64,000 nucleotides of DNA. Origin: a virus. Under the pieces are notes generated by a model that searched no databases, was not told where the DNA came from, and was given only the letters and a program-made list of their open reading frames with translations. Positions 338-18,460 of the stretch are shown piece after piece (position 1 is the first letter of the stretch; each line of letters begins with the position of its first letter). The DNA is taken from the IMG/VR virus record IMGVR_UViG_3300035183_000096, positions 1-64,000 of that record; one strand, 5' to 3'. A program made the translations under genes and the position numbers.

Positions 338-411
338 GAGCTTAACTCCCTATGGCTGGGATGCGGTCTGCAAAACCGTAAGCAAGTGGTTCGACTCCAC
401 CCGTAGTCTCT
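338..411 (+). tRNA. tRNA-Cys(GCA), irregular acceptor/T junction (possibly degenerate)
   Basis: Anticodon arm gcggt-ctgcaaa-accgt, T arm gtgg-ttcgact-ccac, D stem tccc/ggga; imperfect acceptor gagctta/tagtctc with about 2 extra nt. Confidence 0.6.
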
Positions 412-762: not shown

Positions 763-782
763 TTGGTGGGAAACCACCTTAT

Positions 783-855
783 CGAGTACGTACTGCTGGG
801 GACAGTGGTGGGTCTTATATACCCGCTTAGCTGGGTTCGATTCCCAGGTACTCGA
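783..855 (+). tRNA. tRNA-Ile(UAU) copy 1
   Basis: Acceptor cgagtac/gtactcg, D stem actg/cagt, anticodon arm gtgggt-cttatat-acccgc, T arm ctggg-ttcgatt-cccag. Confidence 0.85.
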
Positions 856-856
856 C

Positions 857-995
857 TTGTTCGTAGGCTCAGTTGGTAGAGCGAGTTAGGTGTAAGTCGT
901 AAGACAACAGAAAAAGTACAAAAGAGCTTGACTCCACAATGGTTTTCTGGTACACTTAACTAAGTCGCGGGTTCGAGTCCCGCCGAACATAACCA
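857..995 (+). ncRNA. tRNA-like RNA with extended anticodon stem and ~56-nt insert replacing the anticodon loop
   Basis: Acceptor tgttcg/cgaaca, D arm gctc-agttggta-gagc, 11-bp stem agttaggtgta/tacacttaact, T arm gcggg-ttcgagt-cccgc. Confidence 0.75.
928..956 (+). promoter_or_regulatory. sigma70-type promoter inside the tRNA-like element
   Basis: TTGACT-17 nt-TACACT with extended -10 TG and an A-rich UP-like tract upstream. Confidence 0.65.
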
Positions 996-1130
996 TAGTG
1001 GTTAGCCCACTCTGTCCCCAAGGCAGTAATTAAACGGGGTATGCTTGGGTAATCCCGATGTAAGACTGGAAACAGGCCACCAGACTTGGCTTCTCTTGGT
1101 AACAAGAGATAAGTAGGATGTCCAGTCATT

Positions 1131-1204
1131 CGAGTACGTACTGCTGGGGACAGTGGTAGGTCTTATACACCTGCTTAAGCTGGGTTCGATTCCCAGGTAC
1201 TCGA
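1131..1204 (+). tRNA. tRNA-Ile(UAU) copy 2
   Basis: Near-identical to 783-855; anticodon arm gtaggt-cttatac-acctgc with a compensatory base-pair change. Confidence 0.85.
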
Positions 1205-1251
1205 CTTTAATGTATGTTGGTGTTCTTGTGTATTGAGTAAAGGAGAAAGTT

Positions 1252-1560
1252 ATGTTGGTTGATGTTGGCAATCGTAAGGTTGGTATTTGGATTCAGCATG
1301 ACCGTAGGGGCTTGTCTGGTAACTTCAATGAGGACCGTAAGCAAATTCAGCCTTGTACTAAGGCAACTGTCGAGATTGATGGCGTTAACTATCATGGCAT
1401 CGCTCGTCTTTCTTTTGCTGATAAGCAGTTTATCAAGCGTGAAGGTGTGAAGAGGGCGTTGAGACGGGCTTTGCAGAAGACCACACTAAACAAAGATGAA
1501 CGTAGTAGAATTTGGCGTAGGGTGTGGAATAACAAGTACGAACACTTCAACCCATGCTAG
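1252..1560 (+). CDS. phage hypothetical protein
   Basis: 102-aa ORF with AAGGAG RBS. Confidence 0.7.
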   Translation: MLVDVGNRKVGIWIQHDRRGLSGNFNEDRKQIQPCTKATVEIDGVNYHGIARLSFADKQFIKREGVKRALRRALQKTTLNKDERSRIWRRVWNNKYEHFNPC

Positions 1561-1768
1561 GATGGGCTATTATTCAGTAATCGGGAACCTAAGCGCCCGA
1601 ATGTCAAAGGCGGTATGGCTGCGACACAGCTAGGCGTAATACCGAAATGCGGATAACCTGCTAAGTTAAAACCTTGGCGGTATGCCTAAGAAAACGAATC
1701 CGCCTATCTTTGTACAAAGTAGAACGCTGGATAGGACTACATTCCGATTGTGATTATATGTCTTATCT
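1561..1768 (+). ncRNA. candidate structured ncRNA (6S-like rod with central bubble)
   Basis: Nested helices aatcggga/ttccgatt, tgtcaaaggcgg/ccgcctatctttgtaca, taggcgta/tatgccta in an ORF-free interval. Confidence 0.45.
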
Positions 1769-7551: not shown

Positions 7552-7580
7552 TTGACAATGCCTACGACTTATGGTAAGAT
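7552..7580 (+). promoter_or_regulatory. sigma70 promoter
   Basis: TTGACA-17 nt-TAAGAT with extended -10 TG. Confidence 0.75.
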
Positions 7581-14357: not shown

Positions 14358-14983
14358 TCAATTGTACGCACCTCTACATTAATAAATCAATTTAGTTCTT
14401 GACTTTTCGGCCTCTCCTTGTATATCCTTTAAGCAGAGGAAAAGGATGTATTTCACTTAAATCCTTTGTTTTTAGGTGGAGATTTATTATGACTTTAAGT
14501 ATAGAACAACGACTTAGTAAACTAGAGAATCTATTTGATTTCGATGAACACAGTGCAACTTTCAAATTAGTTAGTCCAGACGGAAAAGTATCTATTAAGA
14601 TTTCTGCTACAAATGATATAGGTGGTATTTGGGCCGAAACTAATAATCATATAGTTGCTCTAGCTTCTATCAGTGACCAATGGGCCGGTGTATTTGGCTA
14701 TCATAAGAATACACTAGATAGCGGCGCATCTTTCGCATTAACTGTAGATAAACATGGTGGGTCTAATGCACAGGCGATGAACGGCAGTTCTGTGTTTGTT
14801 ACAAACTTTGGCCTAATGGTGGAAACATTCTATAGGGCTGAAGCTGCTGAAGAAGACAAGTCATCTTCAGGACATATAGCAAAAGTAAGATAATAGATAT
14901 TTACGAAATATAGCCCGTCTTTCTTTGTGTGTAATCGGTGTAAGAAAATATGGCTCAACCGAAACAACGCAAGGGAAAAAACA

Positions 14984-15898
14984 ATGGACAAGTTCTGGGC
15001 TATATGTACATACTTTAACTACGCTGGTTTTAAGGCACCCTATAACAACTATTTCTTGTTTGCTCATCATCTCAAGCAACAAGGCGTAAATCTTCTTACC
15101 GTTGAACTAGCTTTTGGTAATGCTTCTTATCAAATCCCTTCGAGTGAGAACGTAGTTAGATTGCGCGCAGAATCCGTGTTATGGCAAAAAGAAAGAATGA
15201 TTAACTACGCCTTAAGCATACTTCCTTCCTCATGTGAGTATTTCGCATGGTTGGACTCAGACATTTTGTTTGCTCAGCCTAATTGGGTTGAAATGGCTTG
15301 TAAGGAATTAAAGAAAAATGAAATAGTTCAACTCTTCAAAAGGGTATATTATTTGCCGAAAGGAGATTTGTGGTATAAAGGTAAGCATAATCATATGTTC
15401 CAAGGAGTCATTTGGCAATACAAAACACATAAAAATTGGCTTGAGCGTAGAAGGTCTAAGGAGCTACCTTTCTCCTCTCCCGGCTTTGCGTGGGCTGCTA
15501 ACCGTAAATTCTTCCAAGATTTAGGTGGGCTTTATGATAGAAATATTATAGGGTCTGGAGACACCTTTATAGTTGACTGTATATTAAATTCTTTTGATAT
15601 TCACGGTTATGGTCCTAAGTTCAACACACACATGAAAAATCATATGATGGAATACTGTGGTAGATTTAGAGCAAAGAAACCTAATGTTTCCTACGTACCT
15701 GCCGACATCTATCATCTCTATCATGGTGAATTGAAGAATCGTAGATACATGGAAAGACATGATATTGTTCTCAAATGGGATTATGACCCATCTTACGATA
15801 TTGTATTAGCTAATCATGTGTATGAATGGGCTACACCTAAATATGATATGCACGAAGCGGTTAAGATGTACTTCGTAGATAGAAATGAAGATAGCTAA
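14984..15898 (+). CDS. GT-A fold glycosyltransferase-like protein
   Basis: WQKERMIN, AWLDSD (DxD), PGFAWA, GSGD, HLYHG motifs. Confidence 0.7.
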   Translation: MDKFWAICTYFNYAGFKAPYNNYFLFAHHLKQQGVNLLTVELAFGNASYQIPSSENVVRLRAESVLWQKERMINYALSILPSSCEYFAWLDSDILFAQPNWVEMACKELKKNEIVQLFKRVYYLPKGDLWYKGKHNHMFQGVIWQYKTHKNWLERRRSKELPFSSPGFAWAANRKFFQDLGGLYDRNIIGSGDTFIVDCILNSFDIHGYGPKFNTHMKNHMMEYCGRFRAKKPNVSYVPADIYHLYHGELKNRRYMERHDIVLKWDYDPSYDIVLANHVYEWATPKYDMHEAVKMYFVDRNEDS

Positions 15899-16665: not shown

Positions 16666-18255
16666 ATGGCTAACAAGACTATTTTCGCTAGTCGGTCCGG
16701 TCGTCCTAACACTGTAAACAACGCTGGTGGCAGAGCTTACTCGCTAGAGGATAAGCACGCCTTAGCTCAACTCGTTGTTACAGGCTGTCTAAACGACACA
16801 TACTACACTAACGCCACAGAGCAATTGGACACCATCCTTAAGTTGGCTGGTAAGTGTGATGTTCCGTTCGTAGCCAAGGCCGCAGTGTATGGGCGTGTTT
16901 TTGGTAAGATGAAGGACACGCCTGCCCTTTTGCTTGCTCATTTAACCTCCAGGGGTTATGAAGGTGTAGAGTACACTAAGAAGATTTTCAACAAAGTCAT
17001 TACCAACACCAAGATGTTGCGTAACTTTTTCCAAATTGTTCGTAGTGGTAAGGTAGGCCGTAAGAACTTTGGTACGGCTATCAGTAGGCTAATGGCCAAC
17101 TGGCTAAGTCGAAATACTATGGATGAGTTGTTTGATGGAAGTGTCGGTAATAACCCAACTCTTGGTGATGTTATTAAGTTGTCCCACGTTAAGCCTAACA
17201 ACAAGGCTCGTGAAAACTTCCATAACTACCTACTTGGTAGAAAGTTCAATATTGAAGAGCTACCAGAGCGTATTCGTAACTATGAAAACTTCAAGAAGGG
17301 TTTGACGGACGTTTTACCAAACGTGCCATTCGACTTCTTGACAAGCCTAAGAAGGCTGACTGATGAGCATTGGAAGGAAATTGCTCGTAATGCTCCATTC
17401 AATATGACTAGAATGAATCTAAATACGTTCGCTCGCCACGGTGTCTTCAAGGATGACGAGTTGACGAAGTTGATTACAGACAGACTACGTAGCAGAGAGA
17501 ATGTAGCAAAGTTTAATGTATTTCCATATAGTATAATGACTTCGCTGAACAACATTGAAGGAGGTGTGCCTTCTATTATCATTGATGCGTTGCAAGATGC
17601 TATTGATTATAGCATCGAAAATGTGCCTGAGTTTGATGAAGATGTGGCTGTGTGTCTTGACTGCTCTGGAAGCATGAGTAGTCCTATTACTGGCTATCGT
17701 AAAGGTTCCACATCTAAGGTGTCTTGTCTTGATGTTGCTTCTTTGATAGCCGCAAGCATTGCTCGTAAGAACAGAAACACAATCATTATTCCATTTGGTA
17801 CTAAAGTATGTCTTTGGCACATAGGGGAATTTAACCCAAGTGATAGCGTGTGGACCAACTCTAATAAGTTGCGTGCTATTCAGGGCGGTGGAACCAATTG
17901 CTCTTCAGCCTTGAGATATATCAACGAAGATATGGCAGGCAAGAAGCCTAACCTAGTCATCTATGTATCCGACAACGAAAGTTGGCTGGATAGCGGACAC
18001 TATGGAAGATTTGGTGGTAGTGTTACTGCTACCATGGAAGAGTTCAGAAAGCTACAGAGTAAGTCTAAGGATGCCAAGATGGTGTGTATCGACCTTACCC
18101 CAAATACTACAACACAAGCTAAGGAAAATAAGGACATCCTTAATGTCGGTGGGTGGTCGGATGCTTGCTGGGACGTAATTGGTAAGTGGGTAAAGGGCGG
18201 AAACGATTTTGTCAAGACGATTGAAGAAATTGACCTTGATAGTTGCCCGACATAA
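16666..18255 (+). CDS. rsr: Ro60/Rsr TROVE-domain RNA-binding protein with C-terminal vWA domain
   Basis: NNAGGRAY..LAQLVVTGCLNDTYY, MKDTPALL, MTRMNLNTFARHGVF, MIDAS DCSGSM, GGTNCS, VSDNESW. Confidence 0.93.
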   Translation: MANKTIFASRSGRPNTVNNAGGRAYSLEDKHALAQLVVTGCLNDTYYTNATEQLDTILKLAGKCDVPFVAKAAVYGRVFGKMKDTPALLLAHLTSRGYEGVEYTKKIFNKVITNTKMLRNFFQIVRSGKVGRKNFGTAISRLMANWLSRNTMDELFDGSVGNNPTLGDVIKLSHVKPNNKARENFHNYLLGRKFNIEELPERIRNYENFKKGLTDVLPNVPFDFLTSLRRLTDEHWKEIARNAPFNMTRMNLNTFARHGVFKDDELTKLITDRLRSRENVAKFNVFPYSIMTSLNNIEGGVPSIIIDALQDAIDYSIENVPEFDEDVAVCLDCSGSMSSPITGYRKGSTSKVSCLDVASLIAASIARKNRNTIIIPFGTKVCLWHIGEFNPSDSVWTNSNKLRAIQGGGTNCSSALRYINEDMAGKKPNLVIYVSDNESWLDSGHYGRFGGSVTATMEEFRKLQSKSKDAKMVCIDLTPNTTTQAKENKDILNVGGWSDACWDVIGKWVKGGNDFVKTIEEIDLDSCPT

Positions 18256-18271
18256 ACCGAAATAAATATAT

Positions 18272-18413
18272 AGGGAAACGCTTCGGCAGGATTACATTCC
18301 ATATGAAGGAAGAGGTCCGGGTGCAAATCCCGGTACTGGTACTTTAAGTTAAACTATATACCAGTATAGCTTAAGAGTAGAGCGCTAAAACATCTTGCCA
18401 CCTTCTTTTCCCT
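18272..18413 (+). ncRNA. Y RNA (YrlA-like, circularly permuted tRNA mimic)
   Basis: Terminal stems agggaaa/tttccct and ggcaggat/atcttgcc enclose a T arm (ccggg-tgcaaat-cccgg), a closed acceptor-like stem (tactggta/taccagta) and a D arm (gctt-aagagta-gagc); directly downstream of ro60. Confidence 0.85.
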
Positions 18414-18430
18414 TTAACAAACATCAAAAC

Positions 18431-18460
18431 AACCCCTCTGGTAATAGAGGGGTTTTTTTT
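18431..18460 (+). terminator. intrinsic terminator of the ro60-Y RNA unit
   Basis: aacccctct-ggtaat-agaggggtt followed by a T tract. Confidence 0.9.

What the first reader, a model, noticed from the sequence alone, without database searches (positions are those of the whole stretch)
857..995. tRNA scaffold whose anticodon loop is replaced by a near-consensus sigma70 promoter
Seen: intact acceptor, D and T arms. The anticodon stem is extended to 11 bp (agttaggtgta 884-894 / tacacttaact 951-961) and closes ~56 nt containing a GUC-GUAA-GAC hairpin and a cagaaaa/ttttctg helix. The same insert reads as an A-rich UP-like tract plus TTGACT-17 nt-TACACT, with the -10 hexamer forming the 3' stem strand, so the sequence appears constrained both as DNA promoter and as RNA structure. 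It is too short for a group I intron and has no anticodon. Inference: either a booster promoter in the tRNA operon that keeps RNase P/Z processing signals, or an anticodon-less tRNA mimic (decoy for host anticodon nucleases, or a second Ro60 ligand). I do not recognise this architecture.
Basis: partly seen in the sequence, partly recalled or inferred. Interest (0 to 1): 0.8.

Follow-up and report, generated by a model that had tools for sequence, protein, structure and literature searches.

The report
Phage promoter inside a tRNA-shaped gene
A tRNA-shaped gene in this phage's tRNA cluster has, where the anticodon loop should be, a short insert that matches the phage's own promoters, so it is most likely an internal start signal wrapped in a tRNA-like processing signal; it occurs in this phage only and is missing from its nearest relative.

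Summary
Positions 857-991 score as tRNA (Rfam 37 bits, cut-off 29) with 68 nt replacing the 7-nt anticodon loop. The stems sit at the stated coordinates.

New here:
- **Promoter.** TTGACT-17-TGg-TACACT belongs to the phage's own promoter class. A matrix trained on 10 other sites scores it 16.3 bits. Sixteen plus-strand sites score that high, none on the minus strand, against 0.5 per strand in shuffles.
- **Relative.** A roughly 90%-identical phage contig keeps tRNA-Ile(UAU) but lacks 858-1537. That block holds the element, a spacer, a second tRNA-Ile and most of a 102-aa ORF.
- **Anticodon.** "No anticodon" needs qualifying. ARAGORN in intron mode calls tRNA-Tyr(GUA) with a 59-nt intron, but 30% of shuffled inserts give an equally good loop.
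- **Homologues.** None in viral, metagenome or genome collections.
- **Ro60.** No specific support for a Ro60 ligand.

Best reading (0.45): an internal promoter at the 5' edge of a variable cassette, kept inside a tRNA-shaped RNase P signal that also frees the abutting tRNA-Ile 3' end. Nothing was tested on RNA.

This scan has repeatedly noted insert-bearing tRNA bodies in other phages. None of the 89 I examined holds such a promoter. Interest is moderate.

The parts
857..991 (+). tRNA-shaped gene: acceptor, D and T arms, with a 68-nt stretch in place of the 7-nt anticodon loop
   Evidence: Rfam RF00005 37.0 bits, gathering score 29. ARAGORN -i calls tRNA-Tyr(gta) with a 59-nt intron. Cloverleaf minimum-energy fold, z -3.31.
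857..863 (+). 5' strand of the acceptor stem; pairs with 984-990, with a U857/U990 mismatch at the top
867..882 (+). D arm GCUC-AGUUGGUA-GAGC, preceded by a 3-nt connector UAG (864-866)
884..894 (+). 5' strand of the 11-bp extended anticodon stem (partner 951-961)
896..905 (+). GUC-GUAA-GAC hairpin (GNRA-type loop), followed by AACAGAAAAAG
908..949 (+). Helix cagaaaa (908-914) with uuuucug (943-949), closing a 28-nt loop (915-942) that contains the -35 hexamer
928..956 (+). Sigma-70-type extended -10 promoter: TTGACT (928-933), 17-nt spacer, TG (948-949), TACACT (951-956). The predicted start at about 962-964 is inferred.
   Evidence: Pattern found 7 times in the window against 0.49 expected. 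Position-weight matrix (PWM) score 16.28; 16 plus-strand and 0 minus-strand sites score at least that, shuffles 0.5 per strand. Aligned with the other promoters.
951..961 (+). 3' strand of the extended stem; its first six bases are the -10 hexamer
967..983 (+). T arm GCGGG-UUCGAGU-CCCGC
782..856 (+). tRNA-Ile(UAU) copy 1, ending at the base before the element, with no spacer and no encoded CCA
858..1537 (+). Variable block absent from a roughly 90%-identical relative: the element, a spacer (992-1129), tRNA-Ile(UAU) copy 2 (1130-1205) and most of the 102-aa ORF (1252-1560)
   Evidence: Joint 857 to 1538 (680 skipped, 65 other letters between) in a 7731-nt contig of run X3.
1551..1566 (+). Terminator-like hairpin at the end of the 102-aa ORF; possible end of the unit started at 928-956
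   Evidence: consensus scan only.

Best explanation
The element is a tRNA-derived gene at the 5' edge of a 680-bp variable cassette in the phage's tRNA array. Its anticodon loop has been replaced by a 56-nt segment plus a 6-bp stem extension. That segment is a working member of the phage's own class of host-RNA-polymerase promoters (TTGAC-17-TGn-TAnnnT).

**On the DNA (inferred).** It starts transcripts near 962-964. These would run through the T-arm half, the 992-1129 spacer, the second tRNA-Ile(UAU) and the 102-aa ORF, up to the terminator-like hairpin at 1551-1566.

**On RNA that reads through from the array's upstream promoter (inferred).** The retained tRNA body and the long closing stem keep the stretch folded as a tRNA shape. 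RNase P can then cut at 856/857. That cut frees the 3' end of the abutting CCA-less tRNA-Ile and removes the promoter sequence as a compact piece. The tRNA-shaped RNA itself most likely does not decode.

**Shown here:** the sequence anatomy, the promoter-class membership, and the presence or absence of the block.

**Inferred only:** the transcription start, the RNase P cut, and the fate of the RNA.
For: **Promoter class.**
- Genome-wide, sites with at least 9 of 12 matches plus TG number 23 on the plus strand and 8 on the minus strand. Mononucleotide shuffles give 12.1 per strand.
- The near-consensus sites are 7552, 16588 (before Ro60), 30730 (before ribonucleotide reductase), 33381, 43588, 102460 (before the tRNA-Leu pair) and 126247 (before the array). 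Many share TGGTA with this site.
- The pattern TTGACW-N14-16-TGNTANNNT occurs 7 times in the window, 6 of them on the plus strand. Dinucleotide shuffles expect 0.49, and 0 of 100 reach 7.
- A PWM trained on 10 other sites, with this one left out, scores it 16.28 bits. Sixteen plus-strand positions score at least that: the 10 training sites, this one and 5 others. No minus-strand position does. Twenty shuffles give a mean of 0.5 and a maximum of 2 per strand.
- Of the 5 other plus-strand matches, 4 lie between ORFs, 7 to 90 nt upstream of a start codon.

**Cassette.**
- The relative's contig aligns to 782-857 and resumes at 1538.
- A terminator-like hairpin follows at 1551-1566.
- No terminator-like site outside a tRNA lies between position 1 and the element on the plus strand.

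**tRNA shape kept.**
- All four stems and the conserved tertiary nucleotides are present, and the fold has z -3.31.
- The 6-bp extension beyond the normal 5-bp stem, in fixed register, has a chance probability of about (6/16)^6 = 0.003. This is my own calculation.
- One of its pairs, G889-U956, works only in RNA.
- tRNA-Ile ends at 856 and the element begins at 857.
Against: - **No RNA data.** No run on record as RNA was listed, so the start site, the RNase P cut and a stable 135-nt RNA are all untested.
- **Weakest of its class.** It has TTGACT rather than TTGACA, and C rather than A at position 5 of the -10 hexamer. Its 16.3 bits compare with 17.9-22.5 for the training sites.
- **Dispensable.** The relative lacks the element yet keeps tRNA-Ile, so the RNase P role cannot be essential.
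- **Not a recurrent design.** None of the other 10 promoters examined is bracketed by tRNA halves. None of 89 insert-bearing tRNA bodies from other phages has a TTGAC-plus-TG promoter.
- **No covariation test.** A single genome allows none, so the RNA-level constraint rests on one stem.
- **Stems arise by chance.** A free search around the 10 other promoters found bracket stems of 10 and 11 bp at 2 of them. Only the fixed register makes this stem notable.
Confidence: 0.45

Rival explanations
1. Intron-containing tRNA. The insert is one of the unexplained short introns of phage tRNAs. It would be removed by unknown enzymes and resealed, perhaps by the phage RNA ligase, to give tRNA-Tyr(GUA), or Val or Asp depending on the cut. 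The promoter would ride in the intron.
For: - ARAGORN -i calls tRNA-Tyr(gta) with a 59-nt intron at or next to position 37/38.
- The 6-bp anticodon stem this needs is also used by the neighbouring tRNA-Ile(UAU) pair, which keeps it through a compensatory change, and by the Cys-like gene at 338-410.
- The phage encodes an RNA ligase: PF09414, 106.7 bits, at genome position 106114-106617.
- In 54 of 90 unique insert-bearing tRNA bodies from IMG/VR, a single excision restores a canonical anticodon arm, against 28 of 1800 shuffles.
- Lak phages are reported to have tRNAs with 'enigmatic introns', including tRNA-Tyr(GTA) (PMC6784885, passages read).
Against: - With the canonical 5-bp geometry this element gives no solution.
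- With the 6-bp geometry, 6 of 8 cut registers give an acceptable loop (Val, Val, Asp, Tyr three times). So do 1478 of 5000 shuffled inserts, so the anticodon carries no information.
- The body has a short variable loop, a U1-U72 mismatch and an extra nucleotide after position 9. I recall these as atypical for bacterial-type tRNA-Tyr.
- The phage has no RtcB and no tRNA-splicing endonuclease.
- The minimum-energy fold shows no bulge-helix-bulge. The 3' cut site lies inside a perfect helix.
- No group I or other ribozyme match at E up to 10.
Confidence: 0.15
2. Relic. A phage tRNA gene was destroyed when promoter-bearing DNA replaced its anticodon loop during cassette shuffling. Only the promoter matters and the tRNA shape is left over.
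For: - The element is an orphan: 0 homologues in viral, metagenome and genome collections. One search gave 2 unrelated hits, read.
- The nearest relative lacks it, and the array is a mosaic of kept and replaced blocks.
- The body has two irregularities, the U1-U72 mismatch and the 3-nt connector.
Against: - Apart from the U857/U990 mismatch at the top of the acceptor stem, every stem pair is intact, and the tertiary-core nucleotides are present.
- The stem is extended by six further pairs in register (about 0.003 by chance), including an RNA-only G-U pair.
- The whole RNA folds better than 199 of 200 shuffles.
- A relic could still look like this if the event were recent.
Confidence: 0.2
3. 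Functional non-decoding tRNA mimic. The 135-nt RNA would be a stable product that displays the insert on a tRNA scaffold. It would act as a second partner of the phage Ro60, or as bait for tRNA-targeting host proteins.
For: - The phage encodes a Ro60 homologue: 16666-18252, vWA_Ro60 E 1e-10, 43.5% identical to the Ro60-like protein of Myxococcus phage Mx1.
- A YrlA-like permuted tRNA mimic lies directly after that gene (sequence read).
- In other phages, tRNA bodies with an inserted module co-occur with TROVE genes: 13 of 22 records of the 'GUUACUUC' type and 8 of 28 others. Two of them (L056, L064) also lack a canonical anticodon arm.
- GUCGUAAG is one inserted base away from the YrlA motif GNCGAAN0-1G (PMC4201824, passages read).
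- The hairpin followed by ACAGAAA resembles the 'hairpin + ACAGCAA' inserts seen in 39 matches (37 loci) (counted).
Against: - The Rfam YrlA model scores 16.9 bits against 69.
- The element is 15.7 kb from Ro60, not within the 4 kb used by Chen et al..
- It has none of the conserved pieces of the TROVE-linked inserts, GUGGUGA and GWUACUUC.
- The phage's own Y-like RNA shows no ACAG motif.
- The 11-bp stem is perfect. I recall that Ro60 sites in Y RNAs are bulged helices.
- ACAGMAA is not enriched in the window: 19 found against 24.4 expected.
- The A-rich tract is equally explained as the region upstream of a promoter.
- An RNA without an anticodon loop is a poor bait for anticodon nucleases (inference).
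Confidence: 0.15

Closest known systems
'Enigmatic' introns in tRNA genes of Lak megaphages (Devoto et al. 2019, PMC6784885; passages read)
   Same: Both are phage tRNA genes with a short insert in the anticodon region that matches no intron class. tRNA-Tyr(GTA) is among the published cases, and the insert is present or absent between variants.
   Different: Here no excision restores a canonical 5-bp arm. The insert matches the phage's promoter class. The whole gene, not only the insert, is missing from the relative. I could not see the intron sequences in that paper's supplement.
YrlA-type Y RNAs bound by bacterial and phage Ro60/Rsr (Rfam RF02553; Chen et al. 2014, PMC4201824)
   Same: Both are non-decoding RNAs with tRNA-like acceptor, D and T arms and another module at the anticodon-stem position. 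Both occur in a Ro60-encoding phage.
   Different: The topology is not permuted: the acceptor is open and the insert is closed. There is no GNCGAAN0-1G motif, the element is 15.7 kb from Ro60, and it scores 16.9 bits against 69.
Group I introns in bacterial tRNA anticodon loops (recalled; Rfam Intron_gpI)
   Same: The insert sits in the anticodon loop of a bacterial-type tRNA gene.
   Different: The insert is 59-68 nt where group I introns are about 200 nt or more. No Rfam match appeared at E up to 10.
tRNA-like processing signals: MALAT1/mascRNA 3'-end formation and mitochondrial tRNA punctuation (recalled)
   Same: This is the proposed logic: a tRNA shape that is recognised by RNase P and so defines the end of the neighbouring RNA.
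   Different: Those are eukaryotic systems and contain no promoter. The weak mascRNA match lies at 1146-1202, not in the element.
Engineered 'tRNA scaffold' for expressing recombinant RNA (Ponchon and Dardel 2007, recalled)
   Same: The architecture is the same: an RNA cargo replaces the anticodon loop on an extended stem, and the tRNA body is kept for processing and stability.
   Different: That is a laboratory design. No cargo function is known here.

Membership tests
tRNA (Rfam RF00005) | Score at or above the gathering threshold, with acceptor, D and T arms | tested here: met
   37.0 bits against 29, full model 1-71.
tRNA (Rfam RF00005) | 5-bp anticodon stem closing a 7-nt loop with U33 and a purine at 37, as encoded or after one excision | tested here: not met
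   68 nt stand in place of the loop. My enumeration found no canonical solution. Only a 6-bp-stem solution exists, and it is no better than 30% of shuffles.
tRNA (Rfam RF00005) | Fully paired 7-bp acceptor stem and a 2-nt connector at positions 8-9 | tested here: not met
   U857/U990 mismatch and a 3-nt UAG connector.
This phage's sigma-70 extended -10 promoter class | TTGACA-like -35, 16-17-nt spacer, TGn, TAnnnT, on the coding strand and in non-coding DNA | tested here: met
   5 of 6 at -35, 17-nt spacer, TG present, 4 of 6 at -10. PWM 16.28 bits; 0 minus-strand sites and 0.5 shuffle sites reach it.
This phage's sigma-70 extended -10 promoter class | Transcripts start 6-8 nt downstream of the -10 hexamer | not testable with these tools
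   No run on record as RNA was listed.
YrlA / Y RNA (RF02553) | Covariance-model score at or above the gathering threshold | tested here: not met
   16.9 bits against 69, E 4.2, over 811-909.
YrlA / Y RNA (RF02553) | GNCGAAN0-1G motif in the Ro60-binding strand | tested here: not met
   The nearest string is GUCGUAAG (897-904), with one extra U (motif from PMC4201824).
YrlA / Y RNA (RF02553) | Within about 4 kb of the Ro60 gene, on the same strand | tested here: not met
   Same strand, but 15.7 kb upstream of 16666.
YrlA / Y RNA (RF02553) | Binds Ro60 | not testable with these tools
   Needs a pull-down.
Group I intron | Conserved P1-P9 core, about 200 nt or more | tested here: not met
   59-68 nt, and no Rfam match at E up to 10 in 1-2400.
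Archaeal/eukaryal-type tRNA intron | Bulge-helix-bulge at the splice sites, and a splicing endonuclease | tested here: not met
   No bulges in the minimum-energy fold. PF01974 is absent from the phage. The host was not tested.
'Hairpin + ACAGCAA' tRNA inserts of other phages (earlier scan notes) | A 6-8-bp hairpin, then ACAGCAA; insert at position 28/29 with the anticodon arm intact | tested here: not met
   Here there is a 3-bp hairpin, then ACAGAAA. The loop is replaced, not the stem split.
TROVE-linked 'GUUACUUC' tRNA inserts of other phages | Conserved GUGGUGA and GWUACUUC pieces flanking a helix | tested here: not met
   Neither piece is in 884-961. There is only a loose likeness, UACACUU.

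The most novel reading that the evidence does not exclude
The same roughly 70 nt may be selected at two levels. As DNA it is an internal promoter. As RNA, made from read-through transcripts, it is the cargo of a natural tRNA scaffold: a stable, non-decoding, RNase P-processed RNA whose A-rich, GNRA-capped insert engages a protein. That protein could be the phage Ro60, Hfq, or a host tRNA-targeting defence. If so, transcription from upstream and from within would be coupled through one sequence.
Probability: 0.15. Interest if true: 0.75.

Novelty: new variant of a known kind. Interest (0 to 1): 0.45.

Why it matters
If the reading holds, it shows a way for a phage to place a promoter inside a densely packed tRNA array without spoiling RNA processing. 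The promoter is wrapped in a tRNA shape, so that read-through RNA is still cut precisely at both sides.

It would also be a natural counterpart of the engineered tRNA scaffold. It adds a case to the growing set of phage tRNA-shaped genes with unexplained inserts.

The value is limited. The element occurs in one genome and is absent from the closest relative, so it may be a recent by-product of cassette exchange.

Tried and rejected
**Searches for homologues (all blank for this element)**
- Three neighbouring proteins and Ro60 as queries in IMG/VR gave no relatives.
- An exact 17-mer in IMG/VR gave 0.
- The architecture pattern with TTGAC gave 0 in IMG/VR and 0 in metagenomes.
- A 20-mer in metagenomes gave 0.
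- The genome collection gave 2 hits. One is a Pseudomonas tRNA-bodied insert of another type and one is a duplicated tRNA end, and neither is related.
- blastn against phage records found only a tRNA-Val likeness.
- The 102-aa ORF has a single database neighbour. It is the same protein with a 37-aa internal deletion.

**RNA evidence.** No RNA holder was listed. The laid runs are DNA contigs.

**Comparative structure.** RNAalifold on my alignment of 15 'GUUACUUC' inserts gave no structure, because the alignment is out of register. I did not build a covariance model.

**Ro60 link of the ACAGCAA type**
- TROVE (PF05731) hit 0 of 50 records.
- That model detects this phage's own Ro60 at only 13.5 bits, so the blank is weak.
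- vWA_Ro60 (PF25045) gave 7 of 50 weak hits, all below the cut-off, in open frames of 468-536 aa.
- To fit the limit of 50 loci per call, I dropped L050, L051, L068, L079 and L082 from the first list. From the second I dropped L073, L090, L091, L094, L105, L106, L110, L112 and L114.

**Other checks that gave nothing**
- Repeat or mobile-element reading: the insert has no other copy in the genome.
- The spacer 992-1129 is not notably structured, z -1.52.
- No family was found for the small ORFs at 1252-1557, 10-207 and 2062-2313; 456-614 has only a weak hit (E 0.0055) to a PHROG of unknown function.
- The body has no close paralogue among the phage's own tRNAs or those of Mx1.

**Papers**
- Four of the searches gave nothing further for this report: beyond Chen 2014; beyond Devoto 2019. 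I saw listings and abstracts only.
- No paper among them describes a promoter in a tRNA anticodon-arm insert. This absence claim rests only.
- Supplements were closed. Supplemental Table S2 of PMC4201824 and Supplementary Table 6 of PMC6784885 could bear on the Y RNA and intron comparisons.
Full report
**Setting**

The window is the first 64 kb of a 126,592-bp virus record with 127-bp terminal repeats. It carries:
- a tRNA array at about 216-2058;
- a Ro60 homologue at 16666-18252, with vWA_Ro60 at E 1e-10, 43.5% identical to the Ro60-like protein of Myxococcus phage Mx1;
- a split DNA polymerase III alpha with an intein, a ribonucleotide reductase, and ThyX.

Mx1 has the same general layout of tRNA array, phosphoesterase and Ro60. 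At the DNA level it is otherwise unrelated.

**The observation**

- The Rfam tRNA model matches 857-991 at 37.0 bits (cut-off 29), with 68 nt where the 7-nt loop belongs.
- The minimum-energy fold is the cloverleaf with an 11-bp anticodon stem, the GUC-GUAA-GAC hairpin and the cagaaaa/uuuucug helix. It has z -3.31, and 1 of 200 shuffles folds as well.
- The conserved tertiary nucleotides of a tRNA core are all present by inspection.
- The body is irregular in two places: a U857/U990 mismatch at pair 1:72, and three nucleotides instead of two between the acceptor and D stems.
- Default ARAGORN and the 64-kb Rfam run at the gathering threshold did not list the element.

**Is the promoter real?**

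The generic scan alone is uninformative: it finds 4 sites of at least 9 of 12 in 2.4 kb against 3.9 expected. The phage itself supplies the test.
- On the coding strand it has a set of near-consensus extended -10 promoters, TTGACA-16/17-TGn-TAnAAT. They lie at 7552, 16588 (before Ro60), 18964, 30730 (before the reductase), 33381, 43588, 102460 (before a tRNA-Leu pair), 125345 and 126247 (before the tRNA array, across the terminal repeat). Many read TGGTA, as this site does.
- The pattern TTGACW-N14-16-TGNTANNNT occurs 7 times in the window, 6 of them on the plus strand. Dinucleotide shuffles expect 0.49, and 0 of 100 reach 7.
- A weight matrix trained on ten other sites, with this one left out, scores it 16.28 bits. 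In the whole genome, 16 plus-strand positions reach that score: the ten training sites, this one and five more. No minus-strand position does. Shuffles give a mean of 0.5 per strand and a maximum of 2.

I therefore take the site as a genuine member of the class, with odds of about 0.8. It is the weakest member: T at the last -35 position, and C at position 5 of the -10.

**The nearest relative**

Contigs of three public DNA runs were laid on 1-2400.
- One run is probably the source. A second run is identical over 736-1242.
- The third run, a hot-springs sample, holds a 7731-nt contig of a relative that is roughly 90% identical in the blocks it shares. It aligns to 1-174, 213-593, 627-693 and 782-857. 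It then jumps to 1538, with 65 unrelated letters between, and goes on with 1538-1701, 1790-1877 and 2111-2317.
- So the relative has one tRNA-Ile(UAU). It lacks the element, the 992-1129 spacer, the second tRNA-Ile(UAU) and most of the 102-aa ORF.
- The array is a mosaic of kept and replaced blocks. The element sits exactly at the 5' edge of one such block.
- A terminator-like hairpin follows at 1551-1566. Promoter, RNA genes, ORF and hairpin therefore read as one small unit.

**Is there an anticodon after all?**

- With the canonical geometry (one nucleotide, 5 bp, 7-nt loop with U33 and a purine at 37, 5 bp, 4-5-nt variable loop), no single excision works for this element. By contrast, 54 of 90 unique insert-bearing tRNA bodies from IMG/VR do have a solution, against 28 of 1800 shuffles.
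- ARAGORN in intron mode reports tRNA-Tyr(GUA) with a 59-nt intron. This needs a 6-bp anticodon stem.
- That stem length is also found in the neighbouring tRNA-Ile(UAU) pair, which keeps it through a compensatory change, and in the Cys-like gene. For that reason they match the Rfam tRNA-Sec model better than the tRNA model.
- Under this geometry, six of the eight cut registers give an acceptable loop (Val, Val, Asp, Tyr). So do 1478 of 5000 shuffled inserts, so the call carries little weight.
- The phage has an RNA ligase but no RtcB and no splicing endonuclease.
- Short unexplained introns in phage tRNAs are in print for Lak phages, tRNA-Tyr(GTA) among them (PMC6784885).

Splicing therefore cannot be excluded. 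I give it 0.15.

**Ro60 ligand or tRNA mimic?**

- A YrlA-like permuted tRNA mimic lies directly after the Ro60 gene, at 18262-18420. Reading, it has a T arm, a closed acceptor stem, a D arm, a terminal stem and a terminator.
- The element does not resemble it. Its stem is perfect, it has no GNCGAAN0-1G motif (GUCGUAAG carries an extra U), the Rfam YrlA model scores 16.9 bits against 69, and the distance to Ro60 is 15.7 kb.
- One type among them has a hairpin followed by ACAGCAA. Its records show no TROVE match in 0 of 50. They show only weak vWA_Ro60 matches in 7 of 50, all below the cut-off, in frames of 468-536 aa.
- The TROVE model also barely sees this phage's own Ro60, at 13.5 bits. These blanks are therefore weak evidence.
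- A second type has conserved GUGGUGA and GWUACUUC pieces. It does go with TROVE genes: 13 of 22 records, plus 8 of 28 other records.
- The element has neither signature. Its ACAGAAA lies in the A-rich tract upstream of the -35, as in other promoters of this phage. ACAGMAA is not enriched in the window.

**How it most likely works**

*Shown:* the sequence is a tRNA shape, its insert is a member of the phage's promoter class, and it heads a block that the relative lacks.

*Inferred:*
- Host RNA polymerase starts near 962-964. It transcribes the T-arm half, the spacer, tRNA-Ile copy 2 and the 102-aa ORF.
- Transcripts that arrive from the array's upstream promoter at genome position 126247 fold this stretch into a tRNA shape.
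- RNase P cuts at 856/857. That cut also makes the 3' end of the abutting CCA-less tRNA-Ile.
- The six extra stem pairs in fixed register (about 0.003 by chance, my calculation) argue that the RNA fold is kept. One of them is an RNA-only G-U pair.

*Against:*
- The relative manages without the element.
- No other promoter of the phage is wrapped this way.
- None of 89 insert-bearing tRNA bodies of other phages carries such a promoter.

**Novelty and verdict**

- Insert-bearing tRNA-shaped genes in phages are known in print as 'enigmatic introns'. This scan has noted them many times on other DNA.
- I did not find a promoter in such an insert described anywhere. That statement rests on the searches, which cover open-access text only.
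- This is a single, non-conserved instance without RNA data. I rate it a new variant of a known kind, of moderate interest.

Noticed in passing
window 782-856 and 1130-1205: Two diverged copies of tRNA-Ile(UAU). Each has an 8-bp acceptor stem and a 6-bp anticodon stem, kept by a compensatory change (G-C to A-U). They score better on the Rfam tRNA-Sec model (30.5 bits) than on the tRNA model.
   Followed up: partly
window 338-410 and 692-761: A Cys(GCA)-like gene with a 6-bp anticodon stem and an acceptor mismatch, and a Lys(UUU)-like gene with a degenerate T loop (30.3 bits). ARAGORN calls neither.
   Followed up: no
outside the window: genome 97862-97939 and 98927-99004 (L118:13862-13939 and 14927-15004): Two matches to the type-P5 twister ribozyme, at 36.9 and 40.6 bits (cut-off 37.6), about 1 kb apart on the plus strand.
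   Followed up: no
outside the window: genome about 126282-126390: Directly after the strong promoter at 126247 lies a tRNA-like stretch with a GGGG-UUCGAUU-CCUC T arm and a CUUCUAA loop. No tool called it. The tRNA array therefore seems to start before window position 1, across the terminal repeat.
   Followed up: no
IMG/VR loci L003-L116: More than 114 phage loci hold tRNA bodies with a 62-92-nt gap between D arm and T loop. In 54 of 90 unique ones, one excision restores a canonical anticodon arm (28 of 1800 shuffles). The cut mostly falls after tRNA position 28, inside the anticodon stem.
   Followed up: partly
IMG/VR loci such as L010, L049, L056, L064, L067, L098: Inserts with conserved GUGGUGA and GWUACUUC pieces co-occur with TROVE (Ro60) genes in 13 of 22 records. 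By eye, their layout is the unpermuted form of the Y-like RNA that follows this phage's Ro60 gene.
   Followed up: partly
window 18262-18460: A YrlA-like permuted tRNA mimic (T arm, closed acceptor stem, D arm, terminal stem) and a terminator lie directly after Ro60. Rfam YrlA gave no match there at E up to 5.
   Followed up: partly
window 1252-1560: The 102-aa ORF of unknown family has a database variant with a 37-aa internal deletion and is otherwise identical.
   Followed up: partly
window 867-884 and 964-982: An abundant cellular tRNA-Gly(GCC) is present in all three laid runs (depth 56, 62 and 26). It shares these two stretches exactly with the element. It may belong to a dominant mat organism, possibly the host.
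   Followed up: no
L121:4323-4442 (Pseudomonas chromosome): A tRNA body in a tRNA array with an 88-nt stretch between D and T stems that contains UGUUCCC and GGUGGAACUAC, reminiscent of the TROVE-linked insert type.
   Followed up: no
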